Positions 38,074 to 63,461 of a stretch of DNA of 64,000 nucleotides are shown one piece after another (position 1 is the stretch's first letter; each line of letters begins with the position of its first letter). Origin of the DNA: a bacterium (lineage in GTDB: Bacteria; JADJOY01); contig JAXLQJ010000014.1 in NCBI GenBank assembly GCA_046331705.1, forward strand, positions 1 to 64,000, read 5' to 3'. The translations under genes and the position numbers were made by a program. Below the pieces are notes generated by a model. The model was not told where the DNA came from and did no database searches. It saw nothing but the letters and a program-made list of their open reading frames with translations.

Positions 38074-39597
38074 TCACGCCGCCGGCACCCAGGCGCGCGG
38101 CGCGATCGCGCGCCACGCGTGGCGCGCGATCTGCCGAAGGGCGCGCGTGAGATGCTCGCCGACCTGGGCGTTGCCGACCTGCGCCGAACGCAACGCGTAG
38201 AGCGCGAGCACCACGACGTCCGGCAGCTTGAGCGCGCGGTACGCCCGCGAGCGAACCAGCCCATCGACGAGGCGCGGCGGTAGCCACGGCAGCAGCACCA
38301 GCAGCGCGAAGAACGGCCGGTAGAAGCCGCGCTTGGCGGGCGGCAGCGCCAAGCGCCCGTTCATGAGGTGGATGCCTTCGCCGTGCGCCAGGCGCTCGAC
38401 GTCGGCAGGCTCCAGGTCTCCGCTCGCAACGGCGCGCTCGGCGAGCGGCAGATTGGCGAAATGCTGCATCGAGTAGCAGGTGATCTGCGCCGGCCGCATG
38501 CGGTTGTAGAGCAGCACGGCTTCCTCTTGCGCCTCACGCGTATCGCCCGGAATGCCGAAGATGTGGTCGGGATGAAGCGCCAGCCCCGCCTCCCGGCACA
38601 GCCGTCCCACCTCCTCGAGCTCGTGGTTCTTCTCGCGCCGTCCCAGCCGGCGCCGTTCGGCTTCGCTGCCGGTCTGCACCCCCAGCTCGAGCTTGTAGCA
38701 GCCGGCGCGCGCCAACAGCGCGACAGCCTCCTCGTCCAGGAATGCGGGATACGTGACCGCCTTGAACGGTAGCCCGATCTCCTCCGGGTAACGCGCCGCG
38801 AACTCGCGCAGCCACTCGCGGCTGTTGCCGAAGACGTCGTCCTCGAAGAGCACCCGCTCGATCCGGTGGCGAGCGCGGAAATGCCGGATCTCGCGCAGGA
38901 TCGTGTCCACGCCTCGGCGACGGATCGGATTGTCGCGGGGCTCGTAGAGGCGGTGATAGTGGCTGGCGCAGCAGAACGTACAGCGATACGGACAACCGCG
39001 CGTGGAAAGCGTCTGGAATGCGCGCGCGAAGCTCGCGTCGAGCGCGAAGAAGAGCTCCTTGTCGGGCAGCGGCAGCGCGTCGAGATCGCGGATGTAGGGC
39101 CTGACCGGGTTCGACCAGCGCTCGCCCGCGGCGTCCTTCCCCCACACGTTGGGGATCTCCCGCGGGGAACGGCCTGCGCCCAGCGCCTCCACCAGGTCGA
39201 GCAAGGCACCTTCGCCCTCGCCCACCACCACGTGATCGATGGCGGGCTCCGCCACCACCACGTCCGGACAGAGCGTGGGATGGATGCCCCCGAACACGAT
39301 CGGCAGCTCGGGCGCGCGGCGCTTGATGCGCCGGGCGCGCTCGCGACCCCACGGGTAGTTGATGGAGAAGACGCTGAAGCCGACCACGTCCGGGCGGGTC
39401 GCGAGCACCCGCTCCGCGAACCCGTCGGGATCGTCGAACAGCGACTTCAGCCGGTGCTCGTGGAAGAGCAGCTTGTCGTCGAAGAGCGCCGGATCGAACG
39501 CCAGCGCGACCGAGTGCCCGTGCACCTTCAGGTAGGCCGAGAGGGCCTCGACTCCCTGGTTCTCGAAGCCCATGCAGCAGAGCGTGACGCGCATCAC
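38074..39597 (-). CDS. B12-binding domain radical SAM protein
   Basis: IVFGGIHPT, VGEGE, TRGCPYRCTFC (CxxxCxxC), FEDDVF, LGVQTGS. Confidence 0.9.
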   Translation of the reverse strand: MMRVTLCCMGFENQGVEALSAYLKVHGHSVALAFDPALFDDKLLFHEHRLKSLFDDPDGFAERVLATRPDVVGFSVFSINYPWGRERARRIKRRAPELPIVFGGIHPTLCPDVVVAEPAIDHVVVGEGEGALLDLVEALGAGRSPREIPNVWGKDAAGERWSNPVRPYIRDLDALPLPDKELFFALDASFARAFQTLSTRGCPYRCTFCCASHYHRLYEPRDNPIRRRGVDTILREIRHFRARHRIERVLFEDDVFGNSREWLREFAARYPEEIGLPFKAVTYPAFLDEEAVALLARAGCYKLELGVQTGSEAERRRLGRREKNHELEEVGRLCREAGLALHPDHIFGIPGDTREAQEEAVLLYNRMRPAQITCYSMQHFANLPLAERAVASGDLEPADVERLAHGEGIHLMNGRLALPPAKRGFYRPFFALLVLLPWLPPRLVDGLVRSRAYRALKLPDVVVLALYALRSAQVGNAQVGEHLTRALRQIARHAWRAIAPRAWVPAA

Positions 39598-39687
39598 CGG
39601 TCCCCGAGCGAACCTACCGACGCGCGGAATCGGCCGTCAAACCCGAGTGCCTGGAAGCGCCGCCGCGGACGGCGTACGCTCCGGGCG

Positions 39688-40890
39688 ATGGCGCGTACGG
39701 CGGCCCGTGCCGCATCCCGGGCTTCGTCGCAGCCGCGGCGCACCCGCGCCCTCGCAGCGGCGTCCCGCAAGAGCTACGTGATCGGGGACTACACGGTCGT
39801 CGGCAGCCCGATCGGCAAGGGCGGCTACGCCTTCGTCCACCACGTGGTCTCGAAGCGCGGAGCCTCCTACGCCATCAAGGAGCTGCGCCACGCCCTCAAG
39901 GACCAGCGCGACACGGTGCGCCGCTTCCAGCGCGAGTTCGAGGTCACGGCGGCGCTCGGGCATCCCAACATCGTGAAGATGCACGAATGCTTCGAGGCCA
40001 ACGGCACCTGGAACATCCGCATGGAGCTGATCGACGGCACCAGCCTCGAGAGCCTGATGCGAGGCGGCGATCGCTTCCCCGCGCCGCTGGTCGCGGCGCT
40101 CGGCCTGCCGTTGCTGGCCGCGCTCGGATTCGCGCACCGCAGCGGCGCCGTGCATCGCGACGTGAAGCCCGGCAACGTGCTGGTCTCCCGGGCGGGCCAC
40201 GTCAAGCTCACGGATTTCGGCATCGCACGCCTCGAGGACGTGCAGGTGACGCGCGAGGGGATCCTGCTCGGCACTCCCGCGTACATGAGCCCCGAGCAGC
40301 TCGCGGGCAAGCGCGGCGCGGAGATCGACGCCCGCTCCGACCTCTATTCGCTCGGCGTCGTGCTCTACGAGCTGGCGGCGCGCAAGCACCCGCTCGCGAT
40401 CCGCCCCAAGAGCGACATCTACGAGATCATCCGCGTCAAGAACGAGCGGGATCCCACGCCCCTCGCCGTCGACGGCGGCGACGCACTGGCCGAGGTTCTC
40501 GCCAAGGCGCTGGCGCGCGATCCCGCCGACCGCTTCGCGAACGCCGACGACATGGCGGCGGCGCTGCGCCCGATCGCGGCGCCGAAGCGCGCGCTCAAGG
40601 ACATGCTCGGCAAGCGCGTGCGCGCGGCGAGCGCGCGCCCGAGCGGGCGAAAGCGCGCACCCGGGCGCGGAAAAAAGCCGGCCGTACCGGCGCTCGCCGC
40701 GTCGCGCTGGCGTCGCTATGCTGCGCTCGCCGCCTCCGGTGCGGCGGCCGTCGGGCTGGCCGCCGGGCTGTGGGTCGCGTGGCATCCCGAGGCAGTCGCC
40801 TCGCTCGAGCGGCACGCACGTCAGGTATACGAACGAACGGTGGGATCGGTGCTCGAACGCGCGCGTGAGGAAGCGGGAGAGCGCCGATGA
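39688..40890 (+). CDS. Hanks-type Ser/Thr protein kinase with C-terminal TM helix
   Basis: IGKGGYAFV, AIKEL, HRDVKPGN, TDFGIA, GTPAYMSPEQ, DLYSLG; start approximate. Confidence 0.92.
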   Translation: MARTAARAASRASSQPRRTRALAAASRKSYVIGDYTVVGSPIGKGGYAFVHHVVSKRGASYAIKELRHALKDQRDTVRRFQREFEVTAALGHPNIVKMHECFEANGTWNIRMELIDGTSLESLMRGGDRFPAPLVAALGLPLLAALGFAHRSGAVHRDVKPGNVLVSRAGHVKLTDFGIARLEDVQVTREGILLGTPAYMSPEQLAGKRGAEIDARSDLYSLGVVLYELAARKHPLAIRPKSDIYEIIRVKNERDPTPLAVDGGDALAEVLAKALARDPADRFANADDMAAALRPIAAPKRALKDMLGKRVRAASARPSGRKRAPGRGKKPAVPALAASRWRRYAALAASGAAAVGLAAGLWVAWHPEAVASLERHARQVYERTVGSVLERAREEAGERR

Positions 40891-41846
40891 CCGAGCCCAA
40901 GCACACCGAGCGACCCTCCACCACGCTCGCCACGGCGATTCGCCTCAAGGCCCTGCCGGAGTCGCGCGGGCCCGCGACACCCGGCATCACCGTTCTCAAC
41001 GGCGCGCAGCTGGGCGTGCGGTTCGATCTGGACGACGCCCGTCGCAACTTCGTCGTCGGGCGCGAGCCGGCGTGCGACATCTACATCGACGACGACACCG
41101 TCTCGCGCCGGCACGCCAAGCTCTACGTGCTGCACCTGCCCGACGGCTCCCAGCAGGTGCGCGTGGCAGACCTCGGCAGCACCAACGGGGTGTTCGTGAA
41201 CGAGGAGCGCATCGCCGAGGCGACGCTCCAACCGGGTGACAAGATCCATCTCGGCGACGTGATCCTGCGCTTCGAGTGGCTGGATCAGTACGACCGCAAA
41301 TTCCACGACCGGCTCGCGGAGAAGGTGCGGCAGGCGGCGGTCGATCCCACCACCGGGTTCCTCACCAAACGCTTCTACCTCGAGGAGCTTCCGCAGCTGG
41401 CAGCGGAGTGGTCGGAGGCGCGCGACGGCTACGCGCTGATCTTGATCGACCTGGACGGCTTCAAGCACGTCAACGACCAGTTCGGCCATGCGGTCGGCGA
41501 TCGGGTGCTGGCGCGGGTGGGCGCCCTGGCGCGAGCGCAGGTACGCACCAACGACATCGCCATCCGCTACGGCGGCGACGAGCTGGTCGTGGTGCTACCG
41601 CGCGCCGGCGAGGCCGACGCCGTCGCGGTGGCCACGCGCATCCGCGACGGCGTGCGCCGGGACCGTTGGGAAGAGATCCATCCGGCGATCAGCGTCCGGG
41701 TCAGCCAGGGCGTGGCTGCGTGGCGAAACCAGGCCGACGACCTCGCCACCGTCTTCCGCCGTGCCGATCGGGCGCTCTACTGTGCCAAGCACGGCGGCCG
41801 CGACCGCGTGGACGTCGCGGACGATTCGCGCGTCCCCAAGGGCTGA
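40887..41846 (+). CDS. FHA-domain diguanylate cyclase (FHA-GGDEF)
   Basis: VGR..VSRRHA..DLGSTNG (FHA); DLDGFKHVNDQFGHAVGD, RTND I-site, RYGGDEL, ADRALYCAK. Confidence 0.92.
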   Translation: MTEPKHTERPSTTLATAIRLKALPESRGPATPGITVLNGAQLGVRFDLDDARRNFVVGREPACDIYIDDDTVSRRHAKLYVLHLPDGSQQVRVADLGSTNGVFVNEERIAEATLQPGDKIHLGDVILRFEWLDQYDRKFHDRLAEKVRQAAVDPTTGFLTKRFYLEELPQLAAEWSEARDGYALILIDLDGFKHVNDQFGHAVGDRVLARVGALARAQVRTNDIAIRYGGDELVVVLPRAGEADAVAVATRIRDGVRRDRWEEIHPAISVRVSQGVAAWRNQADDLATVFRRADRALYCAKHGGRDRVDVADDSRVPKG

Positions 41847-41868
41847 ATCGCCCTTCCTGCCGGTGCCG

Positions 41869-42132
41869 TCAGGCCGAGAGCTTGAGCTCGAGCGGCTCGA
41901 GCGGGGCGGCCTCCACCGGCGCAGCCAGCGCGCTCGCCGCGTCGCGGCTCTGGCGATGCCGCAACACCTCGAGCCGGCGAAAGCGCCAGAATCGCCCTTG
42001 CTTGAACGCCGGGATCTCGCCGCGGCGGGCCAGCTCGTTCACGTCGTCGGGGCTCAGGTCGAGCAGCACGGCGACGTCACGGCTGCTGAGCGGCGGTTCG
42101 AGAATCGTACGCGGGTTTGCCATCGGTGCCAT
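41869..42132 (-). CDS. Small excisionase/BldC-like helix-turn-helix DNA-binding protein
   Basis: LSSRDVAVLLDLSPDDVNELARRGEIPAFKQGRFWRF (HTH_17 pattern). Confidence 0.85.
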   Translation of the reverse strand: MAPMANPRTILEPPLSSRDVAVLLDLSPDDVNELARRGEIPAFKQGRFWRFRRLEVLRHRQSRDAASALAAPVEAAPLEPLELKLSA

Positions 42133-42218
42133 CCGTGAGGCTCATGAAGCACTGCGTCATGACCGACCCTCACCGGATAACACGCTGCGTCAAAATCCGT
42201 CAAACACCGTTCCAGGCA

Positions 42219-42431
42219 TCAGTCGAGGATCGCCACGACTTGGTCCTCGACGACCGAGTCGCCGACGGCGACCGCCACCTTCGCGATCGTGCCAGCGGCG
42301 GGCGCCTCGACCGGGATCTCCATCTTCATCGACTCGAGGATCACGATGGCGTCGCCCTCTGCGACGGACTCGCCCACCTGCTTGTCGATGCGGAACACCA
42401 CTCCCGTGATCTGCGCGCGCACCTCGATCAT
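42219..42431 (-). CDS. Stand-alone biotin carboxyl carrier protein
   Basis: 70 aa, ILESMKMEIPVEAPAAG; start at ATG 42431. Confidence 0.9.
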   Translation of the reverse strand: MIEVRAQITGVVFRIDKQVGESVAEGDAIVILESMKMEIPVEAPAAGTIAKVAVAVGDSVVEDQVVAILD

Positions 42432-42459
42432 CGAGCTCTCTCCCCGCTGCATCCGTCGG

Positions 42460-43818
42460 TCAGGTGAACGCGCCGCGCTCCAGCGCACCGGTGTCGAGCT
42501 CGCCGCGCTGAAACGCATCGCTGGTCAGGATCTTGAGATGCATCGCGATGTTGGTCTTGATGCCCTTGATGCGCGTCGCCTCGAGCGCGGCGCGCATGCG
42601 AGCGATCGCCTGCGGGCGGCTCTCGCCCCACGCCGAGATCTTGGCGACCATCGGATCGTAGAACGGCGAGACCGTGTAGCCACCCTGCACGCCCGAGTCC
42701 ACGCGCACGCCTTCGCCTTCGGGGAACGCCAGCGTCTCGATCAGGCCCGGCGAGGGCATGAACTTCTTGTCGGGGTCCTCGGCGTAGATGCGGCATTCGA
42801 TCGCCGAGCCACGCTGCGCGAGCGCATGGCCCTCCAGACCCGAGTGCTGCCCGGCCGCGACGCGCAGCTGCATCTCGACCAGGTCGAGCCCGGTCGTCAG
42901 CTCGGTCACCGGGTGCTCCACCTGGAGGCGGGTGTTCATTTCCAGGAAGAAGAAGCTCATGTCGCGATCCACCAGGAACTCGACCGTGCCGGCGTTCACG
43001 TAGCCCACCGCGCGCGCCGCCTCGCGCGCCGCCTCGTGGAGCGAGCGCCGGACCTCGGCGTTGCGGCCTTCCAGGAAGAGCGGCGACGGCGTCTCCTCGA
43101 TCACCTTCTGGTGGCGTCGCTGCACCGAGCATTCGCGCTCGAAGATGTGGTGCGCGGTCCCGTCCAGCTCGCCGAAGACTTGCACCTCGACGTGCCGCGG
43201 GCGCTCCAGGTAGCGCTCGAGATACACGGCGCCGTTTCCGAAGGCCCGCCGCGCCCGCTCGCTCGCCGACTCGACCAGCTTCACCAGCTGCTCGGGTCCC
43301 TCGGCGACCTGCATGCCGATGCCGCCGCCGCCACCGACCGCCTTGATCAGCACCGGAAAGCCGATGCGCTCGGCCTCGGCGAGCGCTTGCTCGGGCGCGA
43401 CCGGCGTGAGCGTGCCGGGAACCACGGGCACGCCCGCCGCGGACATGGTCTCACGCGCCCGGACCTTGTCGCCCATGAGCGTGATGACCTCGGGCGACGG
43501 TCCCACCCACACCAGGCCCGAATCCCGCACCCGTCGCGCGAAGTCCGCGTTCTCCGACAGGAACCCGTAGCCGGGATGGATCGCCTCTGCGCCGGTCGCG
43601 TGCGCGATCTGCAAGATCGCCTCGGCGTTCAGGTAGCTCTTGAGCGAGGGCGCCTCGCCCACGCGGTGCGCCTCGTCGGCGTAGTAACGGTGCAGCGCCC
43701 GCTCGTCGGCGTCGGAGTACACGGCCACCGTCTCGACGCCCAGCTTGCGGGCGGAACGGATCACGCGGCAGGCGATCTCACCGCGATTGGCCACCAGGAG
43801 CTTCCGGAACATGGTCAC
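42460..43818 (-). CDS. Biotin carboxylase (acetyl/propionyl/methylcrotonyl-CoA carboxylase alpha type)
   Basis: LVANRGEIACRV, IHPGYGFLSENA, GGGGIGM, ERECSVQRRHQK, LEMNTRLQVEHPVTE, YDPMVAK. Confidence 0.95.
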   Translation of the reverse strand: MTMFRKLLVANRGEIACRVIRSARKLGVETVAVYSDADERALHRYYADEAHRVGEAPSLKSYLNAEAILQIAHATGAEAIHPGYGFLSENADFARRVRDSGLVWVGPSPEVITLMGDKVRARETMSAAGVPVVPGTLTPVAPEQALAEAERIGFPVLIKAVGGGGGIGMQVAEGPEQLVKLVESASERARRAFGNGAVYLERYLERPRHVEVQVFGELDGTAHHIFERECSVQRRHQKVIEETPSPLFLEGRNAEVRRSLHEAAREAARAVGYVNAGTVEFLVDRDMSFFFLEMNTRLQVEHPVTELTTGLDLVEMQLRVAAGQHSGLEGHALAQRGSAIECRIYAEDPDKKFMPSPGLIETLAFPEGEGVRVDSGVQGGYTVSPFYDPMVAKISAWGESRPQAIARMRAALEATRIKGIKTNIAMHLKILTSDAFQRGELDTGALERGAFT

Positions 43819-43868
43819 GAGCCTCTCCGCCGAACCTGCGGCGGCGCGAAGGAAGAAAAGGACGGCCG

Positions 43869-43898
43869 AACGTAGAGGCGGGCCGCGTGAGCTGTCAA
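43869..43898 (-). promoter_or_regulatory. Sigma70-like promoter for the biotin carboxylase operon
   Basis: Minus strand TTGACA-N18-TACGTT. Confidence 0.45.
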
Positions 43899-43975
43899 GG
43901 AATGGTGCCGACGCCAGGCGCCTCGGTGCGACCGTCCGGGAACGAGCGATCGCGAGCCCGAATCGCCATCGTCAT

Positions 43976-44005
43976 TTGACCATGCTCGACGCTCACCGAT
44001 ATGAT
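43976..44005 (+). promoter_or_regulatory. Sigma70-like promoter for the GTPase gene pair
   Basis: TTGACC-N18-TATGAT, 60 nt upstream of ATG 44066. Confidence 0.55.
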
Positions 44006-44065
44006 TTTTCGAGGCATTTCGCGCGTTGCTCGGCGGACAGGCGCTCGCGATCCCGAGGATGGCCG

Positions 44066-45223
44066 ATGGCACTCATCCGGTACGCGACCCGGGAAATCAC
44101 CGCCAAGCTCGTCTACTACGGCCCGGGTCTATCCGGGAAAACCAGCAACCTCCAGTTCATTCATTCGCGGCGCGCGTTCGGCAAGGTCGGCGAGCTGCTG
44201 AGCCTCGCCACCGGCGGTGACCGCACGCTCTTCTTCGATCTGCTGCCGGTGAGCGCCGGCACCATCGCCGGCTTCAACCTGCGCTTCCAGCTCTTCACCG
44301 TCCCGGGGCAGATCTTCTACAACAAGACCCGCAAGATGGTGCTGCGCGACGCCGACGGCGTGGTGCTGGTCGCCGACAGCTCGCGCGACGCGCGCGAACG
44401 CAACCGCGAGAGCCTCGACAACCTCAAGCAGAACCTGCACGAGAACGGGCTGGACTACGACACCATCCCGCTGGTGCTGCAGCTCAACAAGCGCGACCTC
44501 CCCGACGCCCAGCCCGTCGCGGAGATGGACGTGGAGCTCAACGACCGGCACGTGCCCGTCTTCGAGGCCATCGCCACCGAGGGCGTCGGCGTGGTCGAGA
44601 CGCTGTCGACGGTGATGCGCGCGGTGCTCGCCGATCTGGACCGCAAGTACAACATCTATCGCGGCAAGAGCGGCGAGGACGCGGACCCGCTGGCGAGCTT
44701 CGACCTCGGGCTCGGCGGGCCGAGCCAGCCCGCGCCAAAGAGCGCGCCCCCGGCGGCGCCGCCGCCCGTCGCTCCGCGCGGCAACGACCCGCCGCCGGCA
44801 CCACCCGCGCCGTCGCGCGTGGTCGCGCAAGCGCCAGCGGCACCGGCGGCGACCAGCGGCGCGCCGGCGGCGCGCGATGCCCCCGCCGCACCCGCGCGCG
44901 CCGCGGCGCCCGCGAGCCCGGAGCGTGCCATCGCCGATCTGCTTGCGCAGACCGTCGCCCGGCTCGACGTGCTCACGAACGAGCTGCGCCACGCGCAGTC
45001 CCAGGAGCGGCAGGAGCTCAAGACCGCGATCGACGGCCTCAAGGCGCCCGCGCTCATGAGCCTCGAGGAGGCGGCCCGCTATCTCCAGGTGGCTCCCGCC
45101 ACCCTCGAGGCGCTCGCGAACGAGCGCGCGATCCCCTGCACTCGCCTCGACGCGTCGAGCGGCTGGCTCTTCACCAAGGCTCTGCTCGACGAATGGGTTG
45201 CCGCACGTAGTCGCAGCCCTTGA
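44066..45223 (+). CDS. MglA/SofG-like small GTPase fused via a Pro/Ala linker and helical segment to an excisionase-like HTH
   Basis: KLVYYGPGLSGKTSNL, DRTLFFD, TVPGQ, NKRD; C-terminal MSLEEAARYLQVAPATLEALANERAIPCTRL..WLFTKALLDEW. Confidence 0.9.
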   Translation: MALIRYATREITAKLVYYGPGLSGKTSNLQFIHSRRAFGKVGELLSLATGGDRTLFFDLLPVSAGTIAGFNLRFQLFTVPGQIFYNKTRKMVLRDADGVVLVADSSRDARERNRESLDNLKQNLHENGLDYDTIPLVLQLNKRDLPDAQPVAEMDVELNDRHVPVFEAIATEGVGVVETLSTVMRAVLADLDRKYNIYRGKSGEDADPLASFDLGLGGPSQPAPKSAPPAAPPPVAPRGNDPPPAPPAPSRVVAQAPAAPAATSGAPAARDAPAAPARAAAPASPERAIADLLAQTVARLDVLTNELRHAQSQERQELKTAIDGLKAPALMSLEEAARYLQVAPATLEALANERAIPCTRLDASSGWLFTKALLDEWVAARSRSP

Positions 45224-45239
45224 ACCTCGGGGACGCGAC

Positions 45240-46829
45240 ATGTCGTTCCTCATCTCGCGCGCCCCGGTCACCCGCTGTCGGGTGGTCTACTTCGGCCCTC
45301 CGGGCGCCGGAAAAGCCACGAGCCTTCGTTACGTCTACGCGAACATCAATCCGCTGCGCAAAGGCGAGCTGCGCCAGCGCGCGCGCGGCCGTGACCAGAT
45401 CCTCGAGCTTTCCTTCGACGTGCGCATCCGCTCGGCCGTCGCGCGGGTGAGCCTGGCGACGGTCACCGGCCCGATCAGCGATCCCCAGGCCTGCGTCGAC
45501 ATCCTGGAAGGCGTGCACGGCCTGGTGCTGGTGGCCGATTCGTCCCCGTCCGCGTTCGGCGCCAACTTGCGCAGCCTGCAGATCGTGGAACAGGCGCTCG
45601 GCGTCACGCGGCGGCGGCTCGCGGCGATTCCGCACGTCCACCAGTACAACAAGCGCGACCTGAGCGACGCGCTGCCGATCGCCGAGCTCGACGACGCCCT
45701 CAACCGTTACAGCGTTCCCTCCTACGCCACCGTCGCGACCGAGGGCCGCGACGTCGAGGACGCGCTGGTCGCGGTGACGGCGAGCATCATCGACACCACG
45801 AGCCAAGAGAAGCCGAGCGGCGCCGGCACCGGACCGGGCCGCGACGCCCAGCCCGACCTCACGCCGCTCGAGCGCGCCGAGCGCCAGAACCTCAAGCAAC
45901 GGCTGCTGCGCCAGCGGCGTCGCGAGGAGCTCGACAAGGCGCTGGATCTCGCCGAGCGCTTCCTCAAGCAGGAGGACCTCGGCGAATGCCTGCGCTGGGC
46001 CCGCAAGGCGCTCGAGCAGGACCCCGAGCACACCCGTGCTCGGGAGCTCTACGAACGCGCCAAGGCCAAGCTCGACGAGCTCGTGGAGCGGCTCTACGAC
46101 GACGCCGTCGCGGCCCGCGATCAGGGCGATCTCGCCGGAGCGGCCGAGCGCGCCGAGCACGCGCTGGAGCTTCATCCTCACCATCGCGGCTTCGAGCTCT
46201 TGCTCGGCGAGATTCGGGCGCTCACGCGCAAAGCGCTCACGACCGGTGCCCCGAGCGCCGCCGCTGCGACGCCACCGCCGCGCCCCGCTCCTCCGCCGGC
46301 CGTCGCGAGCACTCCTCCTCCCGAGCCGGCGCGCGACGACGAGCACGACGAGCACAAGGCGGAAGTGGTCGCGCTCATTCGTCAGAGCGAGGAGCTGTTG
46401 CGACGCGCCGAGCACCGCGGCGCGCTCGAGATCCTCGCGCGCCTCGAAGCGAGCGCGACCGGGCTCGGCGCCAGCGCGCCGGGCCTGGTCGCGGCCCTCG
46501 AGCAGCGCCGCCGCACGGTGCTCGAGGGACTGAAGCAGCGCGCTCGAAAGCGGCTCGAAGCCGGTGACTACGAGCGCGCGCTCGAGGACCTGACGCTGCT
46601 TCTCGAGCACGATTCGCACGACGCGCAAGCGTTGGCGCTGGTGGACCAGGTCGGCACCGCCATCATCGCGCGCGCGGCCTCGGGCGGACCCGCCGGCGCC
46701 CGCAACGCGACGCGTTCGTCACCCGAGCCCCCGCGCCCAGCGAACCGCGACGCCGCGCCAGGCTCCGCCGACTGGGACCTGGCATCCGAGCTCGACGCGC
46801 CGTCGTCGCGTCGCAAGCGCGGCCACTAG
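45240..46829 (+). CDS. Degenerate MglA-like GTPase domain plus TPR-like repeats
   Basis: RVVYFGPPGAGKATSL, GLVLVADS, QYNKRDL, VATEG; TPR-like KALEQDPEH, HALELHPHH, LLEHDSHD. Confidence 0.8.
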   Translation: MSFLISRAPVTRCRVVYFGPPGAGKATSLRYVYANINPLRKGELRQRARGRDQILELSFDVRIRSAVARVSLATVTGPISDPQACVDILEGVHGLVLVADSSPSAFGANLRSLQIVEQALGVTRRRLAAIPHVHQYNKRDLSDALPIAELDDALNRYSVPSYATVATEGRDVEDALVAVTASIIDTTSQEKPSGAGTGPGRDAQPDLTPLERAERQNLKQRLLRQRRREELDKALDLAERFLKQEDLGECLRWARKALEQDPEHTRARELYERAKAKLDELVERLYDDAVAARDQGDLAGAAERAEHALELHPHHRGFELLLGEIRALTRKALTTGAPSAAAATPPPRPAPPPAVASTPPPEPARDDEHDEHKAEVVALIRQSEELLRRAEHRGALEILARLEASATGLGASAPGLVAALEQRRRTVLEGLKQRARKRLEAGDYERALEDLTLLLEHDSHDAQALALVDQVGTAIIARAASGGPAGARNATRSSPEPPRPANRDAAPGSADWDLASELDAPSSRRKRGH

Positions 46830-46911
46830 AAGCCTGTTGCGCGTTGCGCTTCGCACCGCGCCAGGCTCCTCGCCGGGCGCGCGCAGAAGCTCGTTTTCAC
46901 GAGTTTTTTCC

Positions 46912-46941
46912 TTGACTTTGAAAAATCCACGGCCGTAGCAT
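46912..46941 (+). promoter_or_regulatory. Sigma70-like promoter
   Basis: TTGACT-N18-TAGCAT in an AT-rich patch; GAGGAGG RBS before ATG 46979. Confidence 0.55.
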
Positions 46942-46978
46942 CGAGTTCGAACCGAGCTTCGGCACGCGAGGAGGACTA

Positions 46979-47566
46979 ATGCGGGCAGGTCAGGACTTCA
47001 CCAGCTTGGCCACCTACTTCGGCGGCCTCGCAGGTTGGTTGGCGCTCGGCTTCATCTTCCTCGCAGGTTTCAACCCCACTCTCGGCCTCGTCGGCGTCGT
47101 CTTCTTTCACAAGACCATCTATTGCGGGTTCGCGCTGGCCGCGAGCATCTTCACCGCGTTCATCATCTACGCCTCGCGCGAGCGCATCGAGAACTACTAC
47201 TTTCCGGCGCGCGGCTTCGAGGAGTCGGGGCGCACGCTCAAGGCGACGGCGCTCAACATCTGGCCGGTGTTCCTCGGCTCGTGCGCGTGCCTGCTGATCT
47301 ACCTCTACGCGTACGAAGGGCTGAACGGCGTGATCGCCGGAACCCCGCCCACCGCCGAGCAGCGGCAGGCGAGCATCCTGCTGCTGCTCCCCTACACGCT
47401 GGCGTTCGCGGGCTTCACGGCCACCAGCGCCTTGATCGCCATCAAGGAGGCGATCCGCGCCAGTCGCATCGCCTTCGGCCTCGAAGAGGCGGAGGGCGCG
47501 ACCACCGAGCTCACGGACCGCGTGCTGCGAGGCTCGTCGGCGGTGGGCTCGCGCGCGCTGCGCTGA
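46979..47566 (+). CDS. Hypothetical 4-TM membrane protein
   Basis: Four hydrophobic segments, strong RBS, host-like codon usage. Confidence 0.7.
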   Translation: MRAGQDFTSLATYFGGLAGWLALGFIFLAGFNPTLGLVGVVFFHKTIYCGFALAASIFTAFIIYASRERIENYYFPARGFEESGRTLKATALNIWPVFLGSCACLLIYLYAYEGLNGVIAGTPPTAEQRQASILLLLPYTLAFAGFTATSALIAIKEAIRASRIAFGLEEAEGATTELTDRVLRGSSAVGSRALR

Positions 47567-47576
47567 ACGAATCCCT

Positions 47577-47828
47577 TCAGCGGACCTTGCCGAGCGAATC
47601 TTCCTCGAAGAAGTACATCACGATCGACGCCCGGCGGACCTTGAGCCGGCGGGTGCGCGCCATGTTCGTGGAACCGGTGCGGTCGTACACGGTGCAATCG
47701 AAGAGGTCGAGATAAGGATCCGCGCCGGTGGTGGGGATGACGTCGTCGTTTTCCGTCATCCGCACCCGGCCCTTGATCTTGAACTCGTCGGTGAAGAGGA
47801 TCAGGTCGCGTCCTTCGATTTCCGCCAT
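47577..47828 (-). CDS. Small hypothetical protein (beta-rich, DUF6812-like)
   Basis: 83 aa, host-like codon usage, AGGTG RBS, follows tlyA; family call tentative. Confidence 0.6.
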   Translation of the reverse strand: MAEIEGRDLILFTDEFKIKGRVRMTENDDVIPTTGADPYLDLFDCTVYDRTGSTNMARTRRLKVRRASIVMYFFEEDSLGKVR

Positions 47829-47831
47829 CGC

Positions 47832-48599
47832 TCACCTTTCCTGAGTCTCGGCGGCCGCCTGCCGCCGTTCGAGTCGAAGCAAGAACTCGCGATTTCCCTT
47901 GCTGCCGCGCAGGGGGCTTTCGAGCGCTTCCGACGGCTGGAAGCCCGACGCGCGCGCCGCCGAGCGTACGCGCTCGATCGCGTCGCTGCACGCCTGTGGA
48001 TCGCGCACGATGCCGCCCTTGCCGACCCGCGCCGGCTCGAGCTCGAAATTGGGCTTCACCAGCACGATCGCCTCGCGGATCGAGCCGATGCGCGCGAGGT
48101 GCGGCAGCACCTTGCTGAGGCCGATGAACGACACGTCGACGACCGCCAGGTCGGGCGCCGGCACCAGCATCGCCGGTGCGAGCTCGCTCACGTGCGTGCC
48201 CTCGAGCGAGCGCACCCGCGGGTCGTTCCGGAGCCGCCAATCGAGCTGCCCGTGGCCGACGTCCACCGCGTGGCTGAACCGCGCGCCGCGCCGGAGCAGG
48301 CAATCGGTGAAACCGCCCGTCGAGGCGCCCACGTCCAGCACCACCCGGTCGCGCACGTCGACGCGGAAATGGTCGAGCGCGGCTGCGAGCTTGAGGCCGC
48401 CGCGCCCCACGTACGGATGATCCGGCTCGGCGAGGCGCAGCGCGGCATCGGCCGCGACGAGATCGCCGGCCTTGTCGACGCGCCGCTCGCCGCAGAAGAC
48501 CTGGCCCGCCAGGATCAGGGCACGAGCGCGCTCGCGCGACGCGACGAGCCCGCGCTCCACGAGCCACACGTCCGCTCGCGTGCGCGCGCCCCGCGTCAT
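47832..48599 (-). CDS. tlyA: TlyA family RNA methyltransferase
   Basis: S4 domain RADVWLVERGL; YVGRGGLKL, LDVGASTGGFTDCLL, DVSFI, GSKGNREF. Confidence 0.95.
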   Translation of the reverse strand: MTRGARTRADVWLVERGLVASRERARALILAGQVFCGERRVDKAGDLVAADAALRLAEPDHPYVGRGGLKLAAALDHFRVDVRDRVVLDVGASTGGFTDCLLRRGARFSHAVDVGHGQLDWRLRNDPRVRSLEGTHVSELAPAMLVPAPDLAVVDVSFIGLSKVLPHLARIGSIREAIVLVKPNFELEPARVGKGGIVRDPQACSDAIERVRSAARASGFQPSEALESPLRGSKGNREFLLRLERRQAAAETQER

Positions 48600-52559: not shown

Positions 52560-54470
52560 TCATTCCACGCGCAGCGGCCGACCGGCCTGGATCTCGGCGA
52601 GCGCCGCGGCGGCCTCCCGATCCTGCGGCTCGACCTTCAACGCGTCCTCGAGCTCGCGGACGGCATCCTTCTCGCGGCCCGTGCGGTAGTAGACGAACGC
52701 GAGCGCACGATGGCCCGCGGAATCCCAGAACCAGCGATGCACCGACTCGAGGAACGCGCTCTCCGCCTTCCCGAGATCGCCCTTCAGGAAGTAGATGCGT
52801 CCGATGCGCAGGAAGGTCTCGGGATGGACCACCTTGCGCGCCGCGTTGGTCTGGAAGATCTCGAGCGCGCGGTCGTAGTCACGCTGCGCGAGCCGCACCT
52901 CGCCCACCTGGTGCCACGCCGCGGCGGTCAGCCGATCGTCGGGCGAGCGCGCGGCGATCACTCGATCGAGCTCGGCGAGCGCCAGATCGTACTTCCCCTG
53001 GATCCGGTAGAGGCTGGCGCGATCGATCCGATACTCGACGAGCTCGGGGTTGAGCTCGAGGGCGCGTTCGTAGTGGGCGAGCGCCGCGTCGATCTGGCCG
53101 CGCTGCGCGAGCGCCGTGGCGAGGTTCCCGTGGGGACGCGCCTTGTCGGGCGATTTCCGGACCGTATCGCTCCACAGCGCCAGCGGCGACGCCCACACCC
53201 GATTGCGCGACACCGTGCCGATCGCGAGGCACGTCACGAGCGCCAGCGTCGCCGCGCTCGCCGGCCGCGACCACCGCGCATGCGTCGCGATCCGCGCCAG
53301 CGCCCAGCCGGCGAGGATCGCCGGGCCCGCCATCGCGAGGTAGAGCCGCCGCTCGGCGATGAAGTCCTGGAGCGGGATCAGCGAGGTGGGCGCGAGCGCC
53401 ATCAGGAACCAGCCCACGGCGAGCGTGACCAGCGGCACCCGGCGGTTCGCGAGCCAAGCGCCCAGCATCGAGAGGACGAGCGCGCCGGCGCCGACTCGCT
53501 CGCGCCACGTCCACGCTCGCGCGAGGGGAATCGACGGATCGACGTTGAGATTGACCGGTAGCAGCGCGAGCTGCGGGTAGCGCAGCCACACGCCGAGCTC
53601 GGTGCGCCAATGATCGAGCACGGACCACGTGATGTCGGGAGTGCGGACGGCGTGCTGGATCATGATCCGAACCGCTGCCGCCGCCGCGAGCAAGCCGAGA
53701 TGAGGCGCCACGCCGCGCAACGAGTCGCGCCACGCCCGCGTCCGCCCCGGGCGGCGCGCGAGCGTGCGATCGACGAGCACCAGCAGGAACGGAGTGGCGA
53801 GCGCGATCTCCTTGGTGGCCATGGCCGCGACGAACCAGGCCAGCCCGAGCCCACGCCAGATCGTGCGCGTGGCGCCGCGGGTCTCGAGCTCACGCAAGTA
53901 GGTGAGCACGGCAGCGAGCATGAAGCTCGTCGAGAGCACGCTCGAGCGACTCGCGACGTAGCTCACGGCCTCGGTCTGCACCGGATGCAGCGCGAAGAAT
54001 GCGGCCGCCAGCCACGCCGCGCGCTCGCTCGAATGACGCGAGTCGTCCGGGACGACCCGCGCCAGCGCCGCGCGCGCGAATCCCAGCACCAGCAGCACGT
54101 TGAGCGCGTGCAGCGCGACGTTGACGAGGTGGTAGCCGAACGGATCGAGCCCGCCGAGCTCGTAGTTGGCCGCGAAGCTCAACATCAGGAGCGGGCGGTG
54201 GAATTGCTGGGAGATGTAGCCCCAGAACGCCGAGAACCCGCGAATGCCCAGGTTGTCGCGCACCGTGTGGAGATCGTCGTAGACGAACTCGCCCCACAGC
54301 GAGCTCCAGTAGGTGACGAAGGTCAGCGCCAGCAGCGCCGCCACCGAGACCCAGCGCGGCACCGTCCCGGTACGACGTGCCTCGGGTGATTCGAGCCAGC
54401 GGCCGAAGCGCGCGGACAGCCGCCCGATCGCAGCGCCGCCGGCGCGGGCGGATTCGCGAACACTCTCCAT
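52560..54470 (-). CDS. TMTC-like membrane protein (GT-C region with DD motif plus C-terminal TPRs)
   Basis: FVYDD, RPL, YHLVNVALHALN, FALHPVQTEAVSYVASRS, KE, ERRLYL, RNRVW..LWSD, TPRs; start at ATG 54470. Confidence 0.85.
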   Translation of the reverse strand: MESVRESARAGGAAIGRLSARFGRWLESPEARRTGTVPRWVSVAALLALTFVTYWSSLWGEFVYDDLHTVRDNLGIRGFSAFWGYISQQFHRPLLMLSFAANYELGGLDPFGYHLVNVALHALNVLLVLGFARAALARVVPDDSRHSSERAAWLAAAFFALHPVQTEAVSYVASRSSVLSTSFMLAAVLTYLRELETRGATRTIWRGLGLAWFVAAMATKEIALATPFLLVLVDRTLARRPGRTRAWRDSLRGVAPHLGLLAAAAAVRIMIQHAVRTPDITWSVLDHWRTELGVWLRYPQLALLPVNLNVDPSIPLARAWTWRERVGAGALVLSMLGAWLANRRVPLVTLAVGWFLMALAPTSLIPLQDFIAERRLYLAMAGPAILAGWALARIATHARWSRPASAATLALVTCLAIGTVSRNRVWASPLALWSDTVRKSPDKARPHGNLATALAQRGQIDAALAHYERALELNPELVEYRIDRASLYRIQGKYDLALAELDRVIAARSPDDRLTAAAWHQVGEVRLAQRDYDRALEIFQTNAARKVVHPETFLRIGRIYFLKGDLGKAESAFLESVHRWFWDSAGHRALAFVYYRTGREKDAVRELEDALKVEPQDREAAAALAEIQAGRPLRVE

Positions 54471-54549
54471 CACCCTCTCATCCCCTTCCACGCTCGCTTG
54501 AAGGGGGGAGGAGCGGAAAGCGAACCGCACGAACGAGCAACGGCGCCGA

Positions 54550-55764
54550 CTATTTCGAACGCGACTCCAGGTCGAGCGAGGCGATCGGAATGGTCCGGGA
54601 GAGAATCCGGTCGCCCATGTCGAGGCGGATGGTGACCAGGTCGCGCGAAGCATCGTGGCCTTCCGCGCGATTCAGACTGTCGGGCTTGAAGCGAAAGCTC
54701 GTCACCCAGCCGAGGAACTGAATCGAGACCGCGACGTCCTTGACCGGGAACTCGAACTGGGCGCGTCCGCCCGAGGGCGTCGAGTCCGCCTGCGCCGCGC
54801 GCTCGGCGGCGGCAGCGGCGGCGGCGCTCGCCGCCTTGAGCTCGGCGCGCAAGGCCGCGCCGTTGCTCATCAGGGTACGGCCCTCGGTGGCGATCGCGAA
54901 CGAGGTGTCGGGGCTCGACGACTTCACGGGCTCGGCGGTGATCACCTCGCTCGGCGCGCCGGCTGAGGCGGCGCCCGTGAGCACCACGCGGAAATCGCCG
55001 ATGCGCACCTCGTCGTCCACCGCCAGCGCCGAGCTCTTCACCTTCTCACCGTTGACGAAGGTGCCGTTGCGGCTGCCGAGGTCCTCGATGGTGAACGAGC
55101 TGCCGGCGCGCTGGACCACCGCGTGGTAGCGCGACACGCCCGCCTTGTTGAGGATGAGGTCGTTGTCGGACGCGCGCCCCATCGAGAACGGCACGTGCTC
55201 GAGGAGCTTCTCGAAACAGAGCTCGCCGGACTGGTAGACGCGAAACACGCGGCGCGGCTCGCCAGCGGGCAGCGGAGTCGGCGGCGGCAAGGTGCCGGCC
55301 GACTCCTCCGAGGGCTCGCTCTTGATGCGCGTGTCCTCGGCGTCGCCGCCCTGGCGCATGGTGTCGCGGAGCCGGCGCGCGGCCGCGCCCCCGACCTCGA
55401 ACGTGCTGCCGGTCGCGGCGGGCGCGTCGTCGCTGGAGTGCCCGGCGCGCACGTCGGCGCGACTCGTGTCCAGCTCGACGAAACGCAGCACGAACTTGCC
55501 GACGGCGATCTCGTCGCCGAGCTGGATGGCCGCGCGCTCGGCGATCTTCTTGCCCCCGATCAGCACGCCGTTGGCGCTGCCCAGGTCGACCACGTGGAAC
55601 TGACCGCCTTCGTCGACGATCTTCGCGTGATGACGCGACACGCTCACGTTGCTCAGCACGATGTCGTTGTCGTCGCGCCGGCCGATCCTCGTCTCGCGTT
55701 GGTTCAGGATCACGCGCTCGACGACTTCGCCCTTCGAGACGATCTCCAAACCCGGCTTGAGCAT
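54550..55764 (-). CDS. Double FHA-domain protein
   Basis: IGRRDDND..VSRHHA..DLGSANG and MGRASDND..VSRYHA..DLGSRNG. Confidence 0.9.
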   Translation of the reverse strand: MLKPGLEIVSKGEVVERVILNQRETRIGRRDDNDIVLSNVSVSRHHAKIVDEGGQFHVVDLGSANGVLIGGKKIAERAAIQLGDEIAVGKFVLRFVELDTSRADVRAGHSSDDAPAATGSTFEVGGAAARRLRDTMRQGGDAEDTRIKSEPSEESAGTLPPPTPLPAGEPRRVFRVYQSGELCFEKLLEHVPFSMGRASDNDLILNKAGVSRYHAVVQRAGSSFTIEDLGSRNGTFVNGEKVKSSALAVDDEVRIGDFRVVLTGAASAGAPSEVITAEPVKSSSPDTSFAIATEGRTLMSNGAALRAELKAASAAAAAAAERAAQADSTPSGGRAQFEFPVKDVAVSIQFLGWVTSFRFKPDSLNRAEGHDASRDLVTIRLDMGDRILSRTIPIASLDLESRSK

Positions 55765-63386: not shown

Positions 63387-63461
63387 GGCCCCGTAGTCCA
63401 ACGGTTAGGACGCTGGCCTTTCAAGCCGGAAGCCCGGGTTCAACTCCCGGCGGGGTCACCA
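63387..63461 (+). tRNA. tRNA-Glu (anticodon TTC)
   Basis: GGCCCCG..CGGGGTC acceptor stem, CTGGC-CTTTCAA-GCCGG anticodon arm, GGTTCAACTCC T arm, encoded CCA. Confidence 0.96.

What the first reader, a model, noticed from the sequence alone, without database searches (positions are those of the whole stretch)
44066..45223. MglA-like Ras GTPase fused to an Xis/BldC-like DNA-binding domain
Seen: an intact MglA-type G domain (GPGLSGKT; DRTLFFD with the intrinsic Arg; TVPGQ with the catalytic Gln; NKRD), a long Pro/Ala linker, a heptad-like helix (LLAQTVARLDVLTNELRHAQ..ELKTAIDGL) and a C-terminal HTH_17-type domain. No mglB/roadblock gene is adjacent. Known: characterised MglA/SofG proteins control polarity and motility through protein effectors, not DNA. 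Inference: a nucleotide-switched DNA-binding protein linking Ras-like signalling to transcription or nucleoid positioning. I do not recognise this architecture as described.
Basis: partly seen in the sequence, partly recalled or inferred. Interest (0 to 1): 0.82.

Follow-up and report, generated by a model that had tools for sequence, protein, structure and literature searches.

The report
MglA GTPase tethered to winged-helix domain
A real, conserved gene in an uncultured wastewater bacterium joins a Ras-like polarity switch (MglA) through a long floppy linker to a small DNA-binding-type fold, an arrangement not found in print or outside this tiny lineage, though whether it really binds DNA is open.

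Summary
ORF 44066..45223 (+) encodes 385 aa. Residues 1-193 are a Group-1-type MglA G domain with every catalytic motif intact. About 90 disordered Pro/Ala-rich residues follow, then two helices (285-325) and a Pfam HTH_17 winged helix (330-381, 34.8 bits against a cut-off of 27).

The fusion is no assembly artefact. It is present in 6 of 6 genomes of the window's GTDB phylum (one family, two genera), with both ends conserved and the linker free to vary. I found it nowhere else among the proteins examined, and no paper found describes it.

- The next gene, 16 nt downstream, is a second MglA homologue with degenerate catalytic motifs fused to TPRs.
- A free-standing HTH_17 gene lies 2 kb upstream.
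- No Roadblock/MglB domain was found in the 5 genomes searched.

Two results cut against a nucleotide-switched DNA binder. The fused HTH is an acidic outlier (net charge -2; reference domains median +4). The long variable linker makes allostery between the two ends unlikely.

My best reading (about 0.4) is a GTPase-addressed tether: the switch state sets where the winged helix and its probable DNA cargo sit. This is a new variant of a known kind, of moderate interest.

The parts
43976..44005 (+). Promoter-like site TTGACC - 18 nt - TATGAT upstream of the fusion gene
   Evidence: Consensus scan gave 10 of 12 matches; 2 sites were found in 41800-47900 against 0.2 expected. Both hexamers are conserved in 6 of 6 aligned upstream regions. 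Function is not shown.
44055..44059 (+). Shine-Dalgarno-like GAGGA, 6 nt before the ATG
   Evidence: Read from the sequence.
44066..45223 (+). MglA-HTH fusion gene, 385 aa plus stop (P0002)
   Evidence: Full-length orthologues at 71-81% identity occur in 4 other genomes, and one more copy is split over two contig ends.
44066..44650 (+). G domain, residues 1-195, MglA family Group-1 type: G1 44120-44143, Arg53-Thr54 44222-44227, G3 TVPGQ 44297-44311, G4 NKRD 44486-44497
   Evidence: phmmer against PDB: M. xanthus MglA 6h17 at E 1.8e-63 over 1-193, T. thermophilus MglA 3t12 at 3.6e-62. The AF2 model has pLDDT mostly 80-96 here. The domain is almost invariant in 5 orthologues.
44651..44917 (+). 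Disordered Pro/Ala-rich linker, residues 196-284. It starts with a conserved short motif, DPLASFDLGLG (207-217; 44684-44716)
   Evidence: AF2 predicts no secondary structure and pLDDT of 45-65. Length and sequence vary among orthologues apart from residues 196-217.
44918..45040 (+). Two predicted helices (285-308 and 312-325), a helical hairpin or possible coiled coil
   Evidence: AF2 on the full protein and on the C-terminus alone. Conserved in 5 of 5 orthologues, with a 3-residue insertion in two of them. Dimerisation was not tested.
45047..45217 (+). MerR/Xis-type winged helix (HTH_17), residues 328-384
   Evidence: Pfam HTH_17 scores 34.8 bits against a cut-off of 27 and 38.8 bits in the six-frame search. 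AF2 gives strand-helix-helix-strand-strand-helix with pLDDT 78-93. VIA-align: Z 8.0 to a small-terminase DNA-binding domain (53 of 54 residues, rmsd 2.0), 7.8 to BldC, 7.1 to a phage Xis. Foldseek E-values were all above 1e-3. Net charge is -2.
45240..46829 (+). Downstream gene, 529 aa (P0003): a divergent MglA-like domain (1-185) with degenerate catalytic motifs (GPPGAGKA; Gln for the Arg finger and Ile for the G2 Thr; TVTGP; NKRD kept), followed by TPR-like helical repeats
   Evidence: phmmer against PDB: MglA at E 2.9e-24 over 1-184. TPR hits are all below the Pfam cut-offs. The degenerate motifs are conserved in 8 of 8 aligned sequences. The gene follows the fusion in every relative with sequence there.
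46979..47566 (+). Third same-strand gene, 195 aa (P0005), with about four hydrophobic segments and no Pfam match. It has its own promoter-like site at 46912-46941
   Evidence: Conserved at 59-87% identity in 4 loci. The membrane topology is my reading of the sequence, not a tool result.
41869..42132 (-). Free-standing HTH_17 gene, 87 aa (P0271). Membership of the system is uncertain
   Evidence: Pfam HTH_17 scores 43.9 bits. It is one of only 3 HTH_17 matches in the genome. It is conserved beside the fusion in G001, G003 and G004. It shows no pairwise similarity to the fused HTH.

Best explanation
This is a genuine, selectively maintained gene for a Group-1-type MglA GTPase. It is a paralogue of a more canonical MglA elsewhere in the genome. 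A disordered Pro/Ala spacer of about 90 residues ties the G domain to a helical hairpin and a MerR/Xis-type winged helix.

I think it most likely works as a GTPase-addressed tether, not as an allosteric switch:
1. The G domain cycles between GTP and GDP (inferred from the intact catalytic motifs).
2. In the GTP form the G domain docks on effectors, as MglA does in Myxococcus. The co-transcribed pseudoGTPase-TPR protein is the leading candidate partner or regulator, in a lineage where no MglB was found.
3. The winged helix at the far end holds its own ligand, most probably DNA.

The switch state would then decide where in the cell the DNA-bound module, or the DNA it holds, sits. That could mean anchoring the chromosome or nucleoid to a pole, or sequestering a regulator away from its sites.

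Shown: the architecture, its conservation, the fold, and the gene partnership.
Inferred: GTPase activity, DNA binding, the partner, and the tether logic.
For: - G domain. E 1.8e-63 to solved MglA over its whole length. The Group-1 hallmarks, the Arg next to the G2 Thr and TVPGQ (defined in passages read in PMC4316618), are invariant in 5 of 5 orthologues.
- Real fusion. Found in 6 of 6 genomes of the phylum. Both ends are conserved and the linker is variable.
- Winged helix. Pfam above its cut-off. The best structural matches are almost all DNA-bound MerR/Xis-type domains: BldC-DNA, RacA-DNA, Xis, small terminase, BmrR-DNA.
- Retained basic residues. R338, R360, K371, R381 and R383 are invariant. 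By my reading of the AF2 secondary structure, R360 and K371 flank the wing and R381/R383 form a C-terminal tail.
- Linker. Disordered in AF2, which fits a spacer.
- Operon-like layout. A conserved promoter-like site lies upstream, and only 16 nt separate the fusion from the MglA-like TPR gene. That gene keeps its degenerate motifs in 8 of 8 sequences.
- No MglB. No Robl_LC7 in 5 of 5 genomes searched.
- Weak hint of expression. Contigs from three RNA-labelled libraries of three studies match 151-359-nt pieces of both genes with 0-1 differences. The tool warns that this does not show transcription.
Against: - Charge. The fused HTH is an acidic outlier: net charge -2 (orthologues -1 to -2), against a median of +4 for 33 reference HTH_17 segments (range -2 to +7; 5 of 33 at or below 0). 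Eight of the 33 references come from the same phylum and are not independent.
- Missing basic residues. The recognition helix reads APATLEALANER and the wing GWLF. The references usually carry Arg or Lys at those places (read by eye from the output; a column-wise count was not done).
- No sequence-level match to any solved HTH, and Foldseek E-values all above 1e-3.
- No enrichment of the one conserved repeat near the promoter.
- Synteny within one family of close relatives is weak evidence for a functional pair.
- Nothing here shows GTP hydrolysis, DNA binding, localisation or any interaction.
Confidence: 0.4

Rival explanations
1. The winged helix no longer binds DNA. It is a protein-protein adaptor that docks this MglA paralogue onto a partner or scaffold, so the protein is an MglA with a built-in targeting domain and has nothing to do with DNA.
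For: - Net charge is -2, at the extreme of 33 reference domains, and the usual basic residues of the recognition helix and wing are missing (read by eye).
- The exposed positions of the recognition helix vary among the 5 orthologues.
- A MerR-like fold in complex with a protein partner is among the structural matches: the CbpA J-domain/CbpM complex, Z 5.0. CbpM's role is recalled from memory.
- Very many MglA-like proteins over 240 aa turned up (6131 proteins at E<=0.001 in the 211-674 aa length band; 6724 representatives). Of 100 scanned, none matched a non-GTPase Pfam family except two weak hits (MerR-DNA-bind, UPF0242). Swapping targeting modules may therefore be the rule for this class.
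Against: - All the top structural matches are DNA-binding domains.
- Five basic residues remain invariant: R338, R360, K371, R381 and R383.
- 5 of 33 reference HTH_17 segments also have net charge at or below 0, so charge alone does not exclude DNA binding.
Confidence: 0.3
2. This is the first reader's version: a transcription factor whose DNA affinity is switched directly by GTP against GDP in the attached G domain. The G domain would occlude or release the HTH, or drive dimerisation.
For: - The switch and the HTH sit in one polypeptide.
- The helices before the HTH could mediate dimerisation.
- A conserved promoter-like region with a TTTCG-N5-TTTCG direct repeat lies just upstream of the gene and could be an autoregulatory site.
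- A link between MglA-family GTPases and transcription has been suggested before, for Group 3 systems encoded next to a receiver-like/winged-HTH protein (passage read in PMC4316618).
Against: - A disordered linker of about 90 residues, variable in length, separates the domains, which is poor for allostery.
- The repeat is not enriched in the window: 5 hits at up to 1 mismatch against 2.4 expected, and 6 of 100 shuffles reach 5.
- The HTH is acidic.
- No interdomain confidence map was available to me.
Confidence: 0.15
3. The fusion is an artefact: an assembly chimera, a frameshifted pair of genes, or a decaying pseudogene.
For: The window comes from a metagenome-type assembly of 118 contigs. 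The linker is low-complexity GC-rich DNA, where assemblies often break; in G004 the gene is split over two contig ends.
Against: - Uninterrupted full-length frames occur in 5 independently assembled genomes, one on a 436-kb contig.
- The C-terminal domain sits in the same frame in 6 of 6 genomes.
- Both domains are under clear purifying selection.
- Near-identical DNA is held by 14 runs of 9 studies.
Confidence: 0.02

Closest known systems
MglA of Myxococcus xanthus / Thermus thermophilus (Group 1 MglA; PDB 6h17, 3t12)
   Same: The G domain is collinear over residues 1-193 (E 1.8e-63). It has the same P-loop, intrinsic Arg finger, TVPGQ and NKxD motifs.
   Different: MglA is a single-domain protein of about 195 aa working with the Roadblock GAP MglB. 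This protein is 385 aa with a linker and a winged helix, and no Robl_LC7 domain was found in 5 of 5 genomes searched. The own-genome paralogue on contig C13 is closer to MglA (261 bits against 218 bits).
SofG and Bdellovibrio MglA (orphan MglA-family GTPases)
   Same: These are MglA-family switches that work without a coupled MglB. SofG keeps the intrinsic Arg (passages read in PMC4316618).
   Different: Neither is reported with a DNA-binding-type domain. SofG's extensions and its bactofilin partner are recalled from memory and were not tested here.
Group 3 MglA systems and actinobacterial conservons (CvnA-D)
   Same: MglA-family GTPases have been proposed to feed into gene regulation. Group 3 mglA genes lie next to a protein predicted to have a receiver-like N-terminus and a winged HTH (passage read in PMC4316618).
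   Different: There the HTH is on a separate protein, MglB homologues are present, and the G domain has the GTPGQ type of G3 motif without the Arg finger. Here the HTH is fused, the G domain is Group-1 type, and no MglB was found.
BldC, Xis/excisionases and small-terminase DNA-binding domains (HTH_17 / MerR-like winged helix)
   Same: The fold and size match: VIA Z 7.1-8.0 over 52-55 residues covering nearly the whole target. Pfam HTH_17 scores above its cut-off.
   Different: Those are small, basic, stand-alone or N-terminal DNA binders. This one is C-terminal, preceded by two helices, and net acidic. TIGR01764 'excise' scores 26.5, below its cut-off of 28.8.
RacA of Bacillus subtilis (chromosome-to-pole anchor)
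   Same: It is a MerR-like winged helix (RacA-DNA complex 5i44, Z 5.5) joined to a helical region, with the other end addressed to the cell pole. That is the logic I propose here. RacA's biology is recalled from memory.
   Different: The domain order is reversed, no GTPase is involved, there is no sequence similarity, and DNA binding by the present domain is unproven.
ParB/Noc (CTP-switched HTH proteins) and ParA/MinD ATPases
   Same: These are nucleotide switches coupled to DNA or nucleoid binding for intracellular positioning (recalled from memory).
   Different: The folds are unrelated. In those proteins the nucleotide-binding and DNA-binding parts are tightly coupled, whereas here a long disordered spacer separates them.

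Membership tests
MglA family, Group 1 (Wuichet & Sogaard-Andersen 2015) | G1 P-loop GxxxxGK[ST] | tested here: met
   GPGLSGKT at residues 19-26, invariant in 5 of 5 orthologues.
MglA family, Group 1 (Wuichet & Sogaard-Andersen 2015) | Intrinsic arginine adjacent to the conserved G2 threonine | tested here: met
   R53-T54 in DRTLFFD aligns with the same residues of M. xanthus MglA. The definition comes from PMC4316618.
MglA family, Group 1 (Wuichet & Sogaard-Andersen 2015) | G3 motif TVPGQ | tested here: met
   TVPGQ at residues 78-82, invariant.
MglA family, Group 1 (Wuichet & Sogaard-Andersen 2015) | G4 NKxD and overall G-domain homology to solved MglA | tested here: met
   NKRD at residues 141-144. 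E 1.8e-63 over 1-193 of 6h17.
MglA family, Group 1 (Wuichet & Sogaard-Andersen 2015) | Single-domain protein of 150-240 aa (the census's operational cut-off) | tested here: not met
   The protein is 385 aa with two further structured regions. The census excluded sequences over 240 aa.
MglA family, Group 1 (Wuichet & Sogaard-Andersen 2015) | Coupled MglB (Roadblock/LC7) within four genes | tested here: not met
   None in the neighbourhood. There was no PF03259 match at E<=0.01 in G000, G001, G002, G003 or G005; G004 was not searched. Orphan MglAs are known: 59 of 449.
MglA family, Group 1 (Wuichet & Sogaard-Andersen 2015) | GTP binding and hydrolysis | not testable with these tools
   Inferred from the motifs only.
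HTH_17 (PF12728), excisionase/MerR-like winged helix | Profile score above the curated cut-off | tested here: met
   Pfam HTH_17 scores 34.8 bits against 27. The related NCBIfam TIGR01764 'excise' scores 26.5, below its cut-off of 28.8.
HTH_17 (PF12728), excisionase/MerR-like winged helix | Fold: short strand, two helices, two-stranded wing, C-terminal helix | tested here: met
   AF2 elements: strand 330-332, helix 333-340, helix 344-352, strand 367-370, helix 371-382; the C-terminus folded alone gives the same order. VIA Z 7.1-8.0 to BldC, Xis and terminase domains over nearly their full length. Caveats: Foldseek E-values are all above 1e-3, and Z near 8 is middling by the tool's own note.
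HTH_17 (PF12728), excisionase/MerR-like winged helix | Basic DNA-contact surface typical of the family | tested here: inconclusive
   Net charge is -2 against a median of +4 for 33 reference segments; 5 of 33 references are also at or below 0. R338, R360, K371, R381 and R383 are invariant.
HTH_17 (PF12728), excisionase/MerR-like winged helix | DNA binding | not testable with these tools
RacA-type chromosome anchor (considered as a functional analogue only) | N-terminal MerR-like winged helix followed by a coiled coil that binds a polar landmark | tested here: not met
   The domain order is reversed and there is no sequence similarity. Only the fold is alike (5i44, Z 5.5). It is not filed as a member.

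The most novel reading that the evidence does not exclude
A Ras-like polarity GTPase is physically tied to DNA. In this MglB-less candidate phylum, an MglA paralogue would use its GTP cycle to attach the chromosome or nucleoid to a polar or membrane landmark and release it again, or to use the nucleoid as a positioning scaffold. The cycle would be governed by a co-transcribed pseudoGTPase-TPR protein instead of a Roadblock GAP. That would be a GTPase-based counterpart of RacA/DivIVA or ParA-type systems, and the first of a large unexplored class of modular 'extended MglA' proteins to have a readable output domain.
Probability: 0.15. Interest if true: 0.85.

Novelty: new variant of a known kind. 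Interest (0 to 1): 0.55.

Why it matters
Bacterial Ras-like GTPases of the MglA family are known as single-domain polarity switches that act through protein effectors. A conserved fusion to a DNA-binding-type fold would be the first direct physical link between such a switch and DNA, or would show that this fold has been reused as a targeting module.

It also points to something larger. Searches returned thousands of MglA-like proteins over 240 aa with Pro-rich linkers and uncharacterised C-terminal modules. The only systematic census left this class out because of its length cut-off. In the HTH_17 variant the output module has a recognisable fold, so it is a practical way into that class.

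The lineage also lacks a detectable MglB. That raises the question of what regulates its three MglA-like proteins, and the degenerate MglA-TPR neighbour is a testable candidate. The main limits are that the organism is uncultured and that every functional claim rests on inference.

Tried and rejected
- Complex prediction. I sent the G domain, the C-terminal domain and the pseudoGTPase-TPR protein as three chains. Score 0.00, verdict 'no answer'. It says nothing either way about binding.
- C-terminal profile against PDB sequences. Only chance-level hits (E 0.36-0.41).
- Foldseek on the C-terminal model. No hit at E<=1e-3, so I relied on the VIA second look.
- Fusion outside the lineage. None of these found a second MglA+HTH_17 protein outside the family:
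  - word-index search with the whole protein: 4 of the 120 listed carry PF12728, all from the family;
  - search with residues 286-385: 4 hits, all from the family;
  - profile search of 1.84 billion representatives: of 150 listed, only the own cluster spans the HTH;
  - C-terminal HMM against all 270 stored proteins: next best E 0.12;
  - Pfam on 100 long MglA-like representatives: 0 HTH_17;
  - two ESM Atlas look-ups: scores of 0.87 or less, no mixed cluster.
  Hits below the listed tops were not examined, so this means 'not found among those examined'.
- Recent duplication of the neighbouring small HTH_17 gene as the source of the fused HTH. No BLASTP alignment at E<=100.
- A regulon motif. 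TTTCG-N5-TTTCG is not enriched in the window.
- Rfam scan of the window. One tRNA only, nothing near the gene.
- RNA-library contigs. They cover only parts of the genes, and no contig spans the linker. Uncovered parts say nothing.
- Column-by-column comparison of basic positions in HTH_17 domains. Not carried out; only the net-charge comparison stands.
- Paper supplements were closed. Supplementary table S2 of PMC4316618 might list long MglA-like sequences that I could not see.
Full report
**1. What is at the coordinates**

The window is GC-rich (0.65-0.77 around the site). ORF listing and translation show a 385-codon frame from ATG 44066 to the stop at 45221-45223. A longer TTG-started frame from 43745 overlaps the divergently transcribed biotin carboxylase gene (42460..43818, minus strand; Pfam CPSase_L_D2 and Biotin_carb_N/C), so it is not the likely start. 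Three things support the ATG:
- residue 1 aligns with residue 1 of solved MglA;
- GAGGA sits 6 nt upstream;
- upstream DNA diverges among relatives while the ATG column is shared.

**2. The two ends**

*N-terminus.* Residues 1-193 match M. xanthus MglA (6h17) at E 1.8e-63 and T. thermophilus MglA (3t12) at 3.6e-62, end to end. The protein carries the two hallmarks that Wuichet and Sogaard-Andersen use for Group 1 MglA: the arginine next to the G2 threonine, and TVPGQ in G3 (passages read in PMC4316618).

*C-terminus.* Pfam scores HTH_17 at 34.8 bits against a cut-off of 27 for residues 330-381. NCBIfam's excisionase domain model falls just short, at 26.5 against 28.8.

*Structure prediction.* AlphaFold2 with a 40-row alignment (mean pLDDT 74.8) gives:
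- a confident G domain;
- no structure for residues 196-284;
- two helices (285-308, 312-325);
- a strand-helix-helix-wing-helix unit.

The C-terminus folded alone gives the same picture (pLDDT 78.2).

*Structural matches.* Foldseek against the PDB found nothing at E<=1e-3. Its best rows, re-aligned by VIA-align, are nevertheless a coherent set of MerR/Xis-type winged helices covering nearly their full length:

| Match | Z |
|---|---|
| small-terminase DNA-binding domain (53 of 54 residues, rmsd 2.0) | 8.0 |
| BldC-DNA | 7.8 |
| transposon excisionase (8c3t) | 7.2 |
| phage Xis | 7.1 |
| BmrR-DNA | 6.3 |
| RacA-DNA | 5.5 |

The tool warns that Z near 8 is middling. Together with the Pfam hit I accept the fold.

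**3. Is the fusion real, and how far does it reach?**

The window is contig C14 of an 8.17-Mb, 118-contig assembly that is 95.7% complete. Its GTDB phylum holds only six species genomes in the collection, in one family and two genera.
- All six carry the C-terminal domain in frame.
- Five, counting the window's own genome, carry the uninterrupted full-length gene. The sixth has it split across two contig ends within the linker.
- Public records call these MAGs 'Deltaproteobacteria bacterium' or 'uncultured bacterium'.
- In a five-way alignment the G domain is almost invariant, the linker varies in length and sequence, and the helices plus HTH are 62-79% identical. That is the signature of two selected domains joined by a spacer, not of a chimera.
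- Near-identical DNA is held by 14 runs of 9 studies, labelled activated sludge, wastewater, digester or sludge.

Outside the lineage I found no second example. The searches and their limits are listed under Tried and rejected. Four literature searches found no description, and the 2015 census dropped everything longer than 240 aa.

**4. Surroundings**

Sixteen nucleotides after the stop begins a 529-codon gene (45240..46829). Its first 184 residues are a divergent MglA homologue (E 2.9e-24), followed by TPR-like repeats that all score below the Pfam cut-offs. Its catalytic positions are degenerate, and consistently so in 8 of 8 sequences:
- the P-loop Thr is Ala or Gly;
- the Arg finger is Gln;
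- the G2 Thr is Ile or Val;
- TVPGQ is replaced by forms lacking the Gln (mostly TV[TS]GP);
- NKRD is kept.

The domain is otherwise highly conserved, so it looks like a maintained pseudoGTPase or non-hydrolysing binder. This protein family is also confined to the lineage.

Other neighbours:
- A 195-aa hydrophobic protein follows (46979..47566), with its own promoter-like site.
- Upstream lie a Ser/Thr kinase, an FHA-GGDEF protein, an 87-aa free-standing HTH_17 protein (41869..42132, minus strand) and the biotin carboxylase.
- Downstream lie TlyA-like, polyprenyl synthetase and exonuclease VII genes.

The whole stretch is syntenic in the relatives, as expected for close kin, so synteny alone is weak evidence of function.

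A promoter-like TTGACC-18-TATGAT (43976..44005) is conserved in 6 of 6 upstream regions.

The genome holds a third MglA-like gene on contig C13. It encodes 390 aa with canonical motifs and is closer to M. xanthus MglA (261 bits) than the fusion is (218 bits). No Roadblock/LC7 domain was found in the own genome or in four relatives, while the control genomes did ring.

**5. Does the winged helix bind DNA?**

The fold says probably; the chemistry is equivocal.

I took the 33 HTH_17 matches that lay inside stored loci, leaving out the fused copies. Eight of them come from the same phylum. I then compared net charge over the matched segment:

| Segment | Net charge |
|---|---|
| 33 references | median +4, range -2 to +7, 5 of 33 at or below 0 |
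| fused domain | -2 |
| its four orthologues | -2, -2, -2, -1 |
| neighbouring free-standing HTH_17 | +4 |

Reading the printed segments by eye, the references usually have Arg, Lys or Tyr in the second helix and G-R-x-W-R-F in the wing. The fusion has APATLEALANER and SSGWLF. Five basic residues remain invariant: R338, R360, K371, R381 and R383. I therefore put DNA binding at roughly even odds.

**6. Mechanism**

The disordered spacer between the G domain and the helices (residues 196-284 in the AF2 model), whose length varies among orthologues, makes it unlikely that the nucleotide state is passed on allosterically to the HTH.

The anatomy reads better as a tether with two independent ends. 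One is a GTP-dependent docking end (MglA-GTP binds effectors in Myxococcus, from established knowledge of the family). The other is a cargo end. The switch would then control where the cargo end is, not how tightly it binds.
- If the cargo is DNA, this resembles RacA-type chromosome anchoring, or sequestration of a regulator.
- If the cargo is a protein, it is an MglA with a built-in targeting module.

With MglB not found, the degenerate MglA-TPR neighbour is the natural candidate for effector or regulator. My one complex prediction gave no verdict and is not evidence either way.

Contigs from three RNA-labelled libraries match pieces of both genes exactly or nearly so. One 359-nt contig crosses the gene 1/gene 2 junction. 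The tool cautions that this shows neither transcription nor a single transcript.

**7. Comparison and verdict**

The G domain meets the sequence definition of Group 1 MglA. It fails the operational criteria of single-domain size and coupled MglB, so I call it an MglA-family paralogue with a new architecture, not 'an MglA'. The C-terminus is a member of HTH_17 by profile and by fold. The RacA, ParB and Group 3 MglA systems are functional analogies only.

Novelty: a new variant of a known kind, confined to a six-species candidate phylum. It sits within a much larger unexplored population of extended MglA-like proteins whose C-termini fall into many unrelated clusters: of 261 examined, clusters of 28, 16, 12, 11 and smaller, plus 102 singletons.

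Interest is moderate (0.55). The architecture is real and apparently undescribed, but its key functional claim is untested, and one computed property counts against the simplest reading.

Paper supplements were closed.

Noticed in passing
window 41869..42132 (-): There is a free-standing 87-aa HTH_17 gene (Pfam 43.9 bits) 2 kb upstream of the fusion. Only 3 HTH_17 matches exist in the 8.17-Mb genome, and two of them lie within 3.2 kb of each other. It is basic (+4), is conserved beside the fusion in three relatives, and shows no pairwise similarity to the fused HTH.
   Followed up: partly
window 44007..44021 (+): A direct repeat, TTTCG-N5-TTTCG, lies immediately after the conserved -10-like hexamer. 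It is AT-rich in a 70% GC genome and conserved in 6 of 6 upstream regions. It is not enriched elsewhere in the window. It could be an operator or simply the transcription start region.
   Followed up: partly
proteins P0011-P0270: Thousands of MglA-like proteins of 250-800 aa have Pro-rich linkers and C-termini. Of 100 scanned, none matched a non-GTPase Pfam family except one weak MerR-DNA-bind hit and one weak UPF0242 hit. Their last 110 residues fall into many unrelated clusters. The 2015 census excluded this class by its 240-aa cut-off.
   Followed up: partly
G000 contig C13:109667-110470 (-); L002 1132..2304 (-): The third MglA-like gene of the genome encodes 390 aa with canonical motifs. 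It is closer to M. xanthus MglA (261 bits) than the fusion is, and it also has a ~200-aa Pro-rich extension ending in a short strand-rich tail with no Pfam match. It is conserved in the relatives.
   Followed up: partly
window 44684..44716 (+), residues 207-217: A short motif, DPLASFDLGLG, directly after the G domain is conserved in 5 of 5 orthologues while the rest of the linker drifts. It may be a linear docking motif.
   Followed up: no
window 38866..41846 (+) and 54550..55764 (-): The neighbourhood is dense in signalling genes: a Ser/Thr kinase, an FHA-GGDEF diguanylate cyclase, a protein with two FHA matches, and a large TPR protein at 52560..54653 (-).
   Followed up: no
whole genome G000 and relatives G001-G003, G005: No Roadblock/LC7 (MglB-type) domain was found in 5 of 5 genomes searched, in a phylum that keeps three MglA-like genes per genome.
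   Followed up: partly
window 63387..63458 (+): This tRNA gene is the only Rfam match in the window.
   Followed up: no
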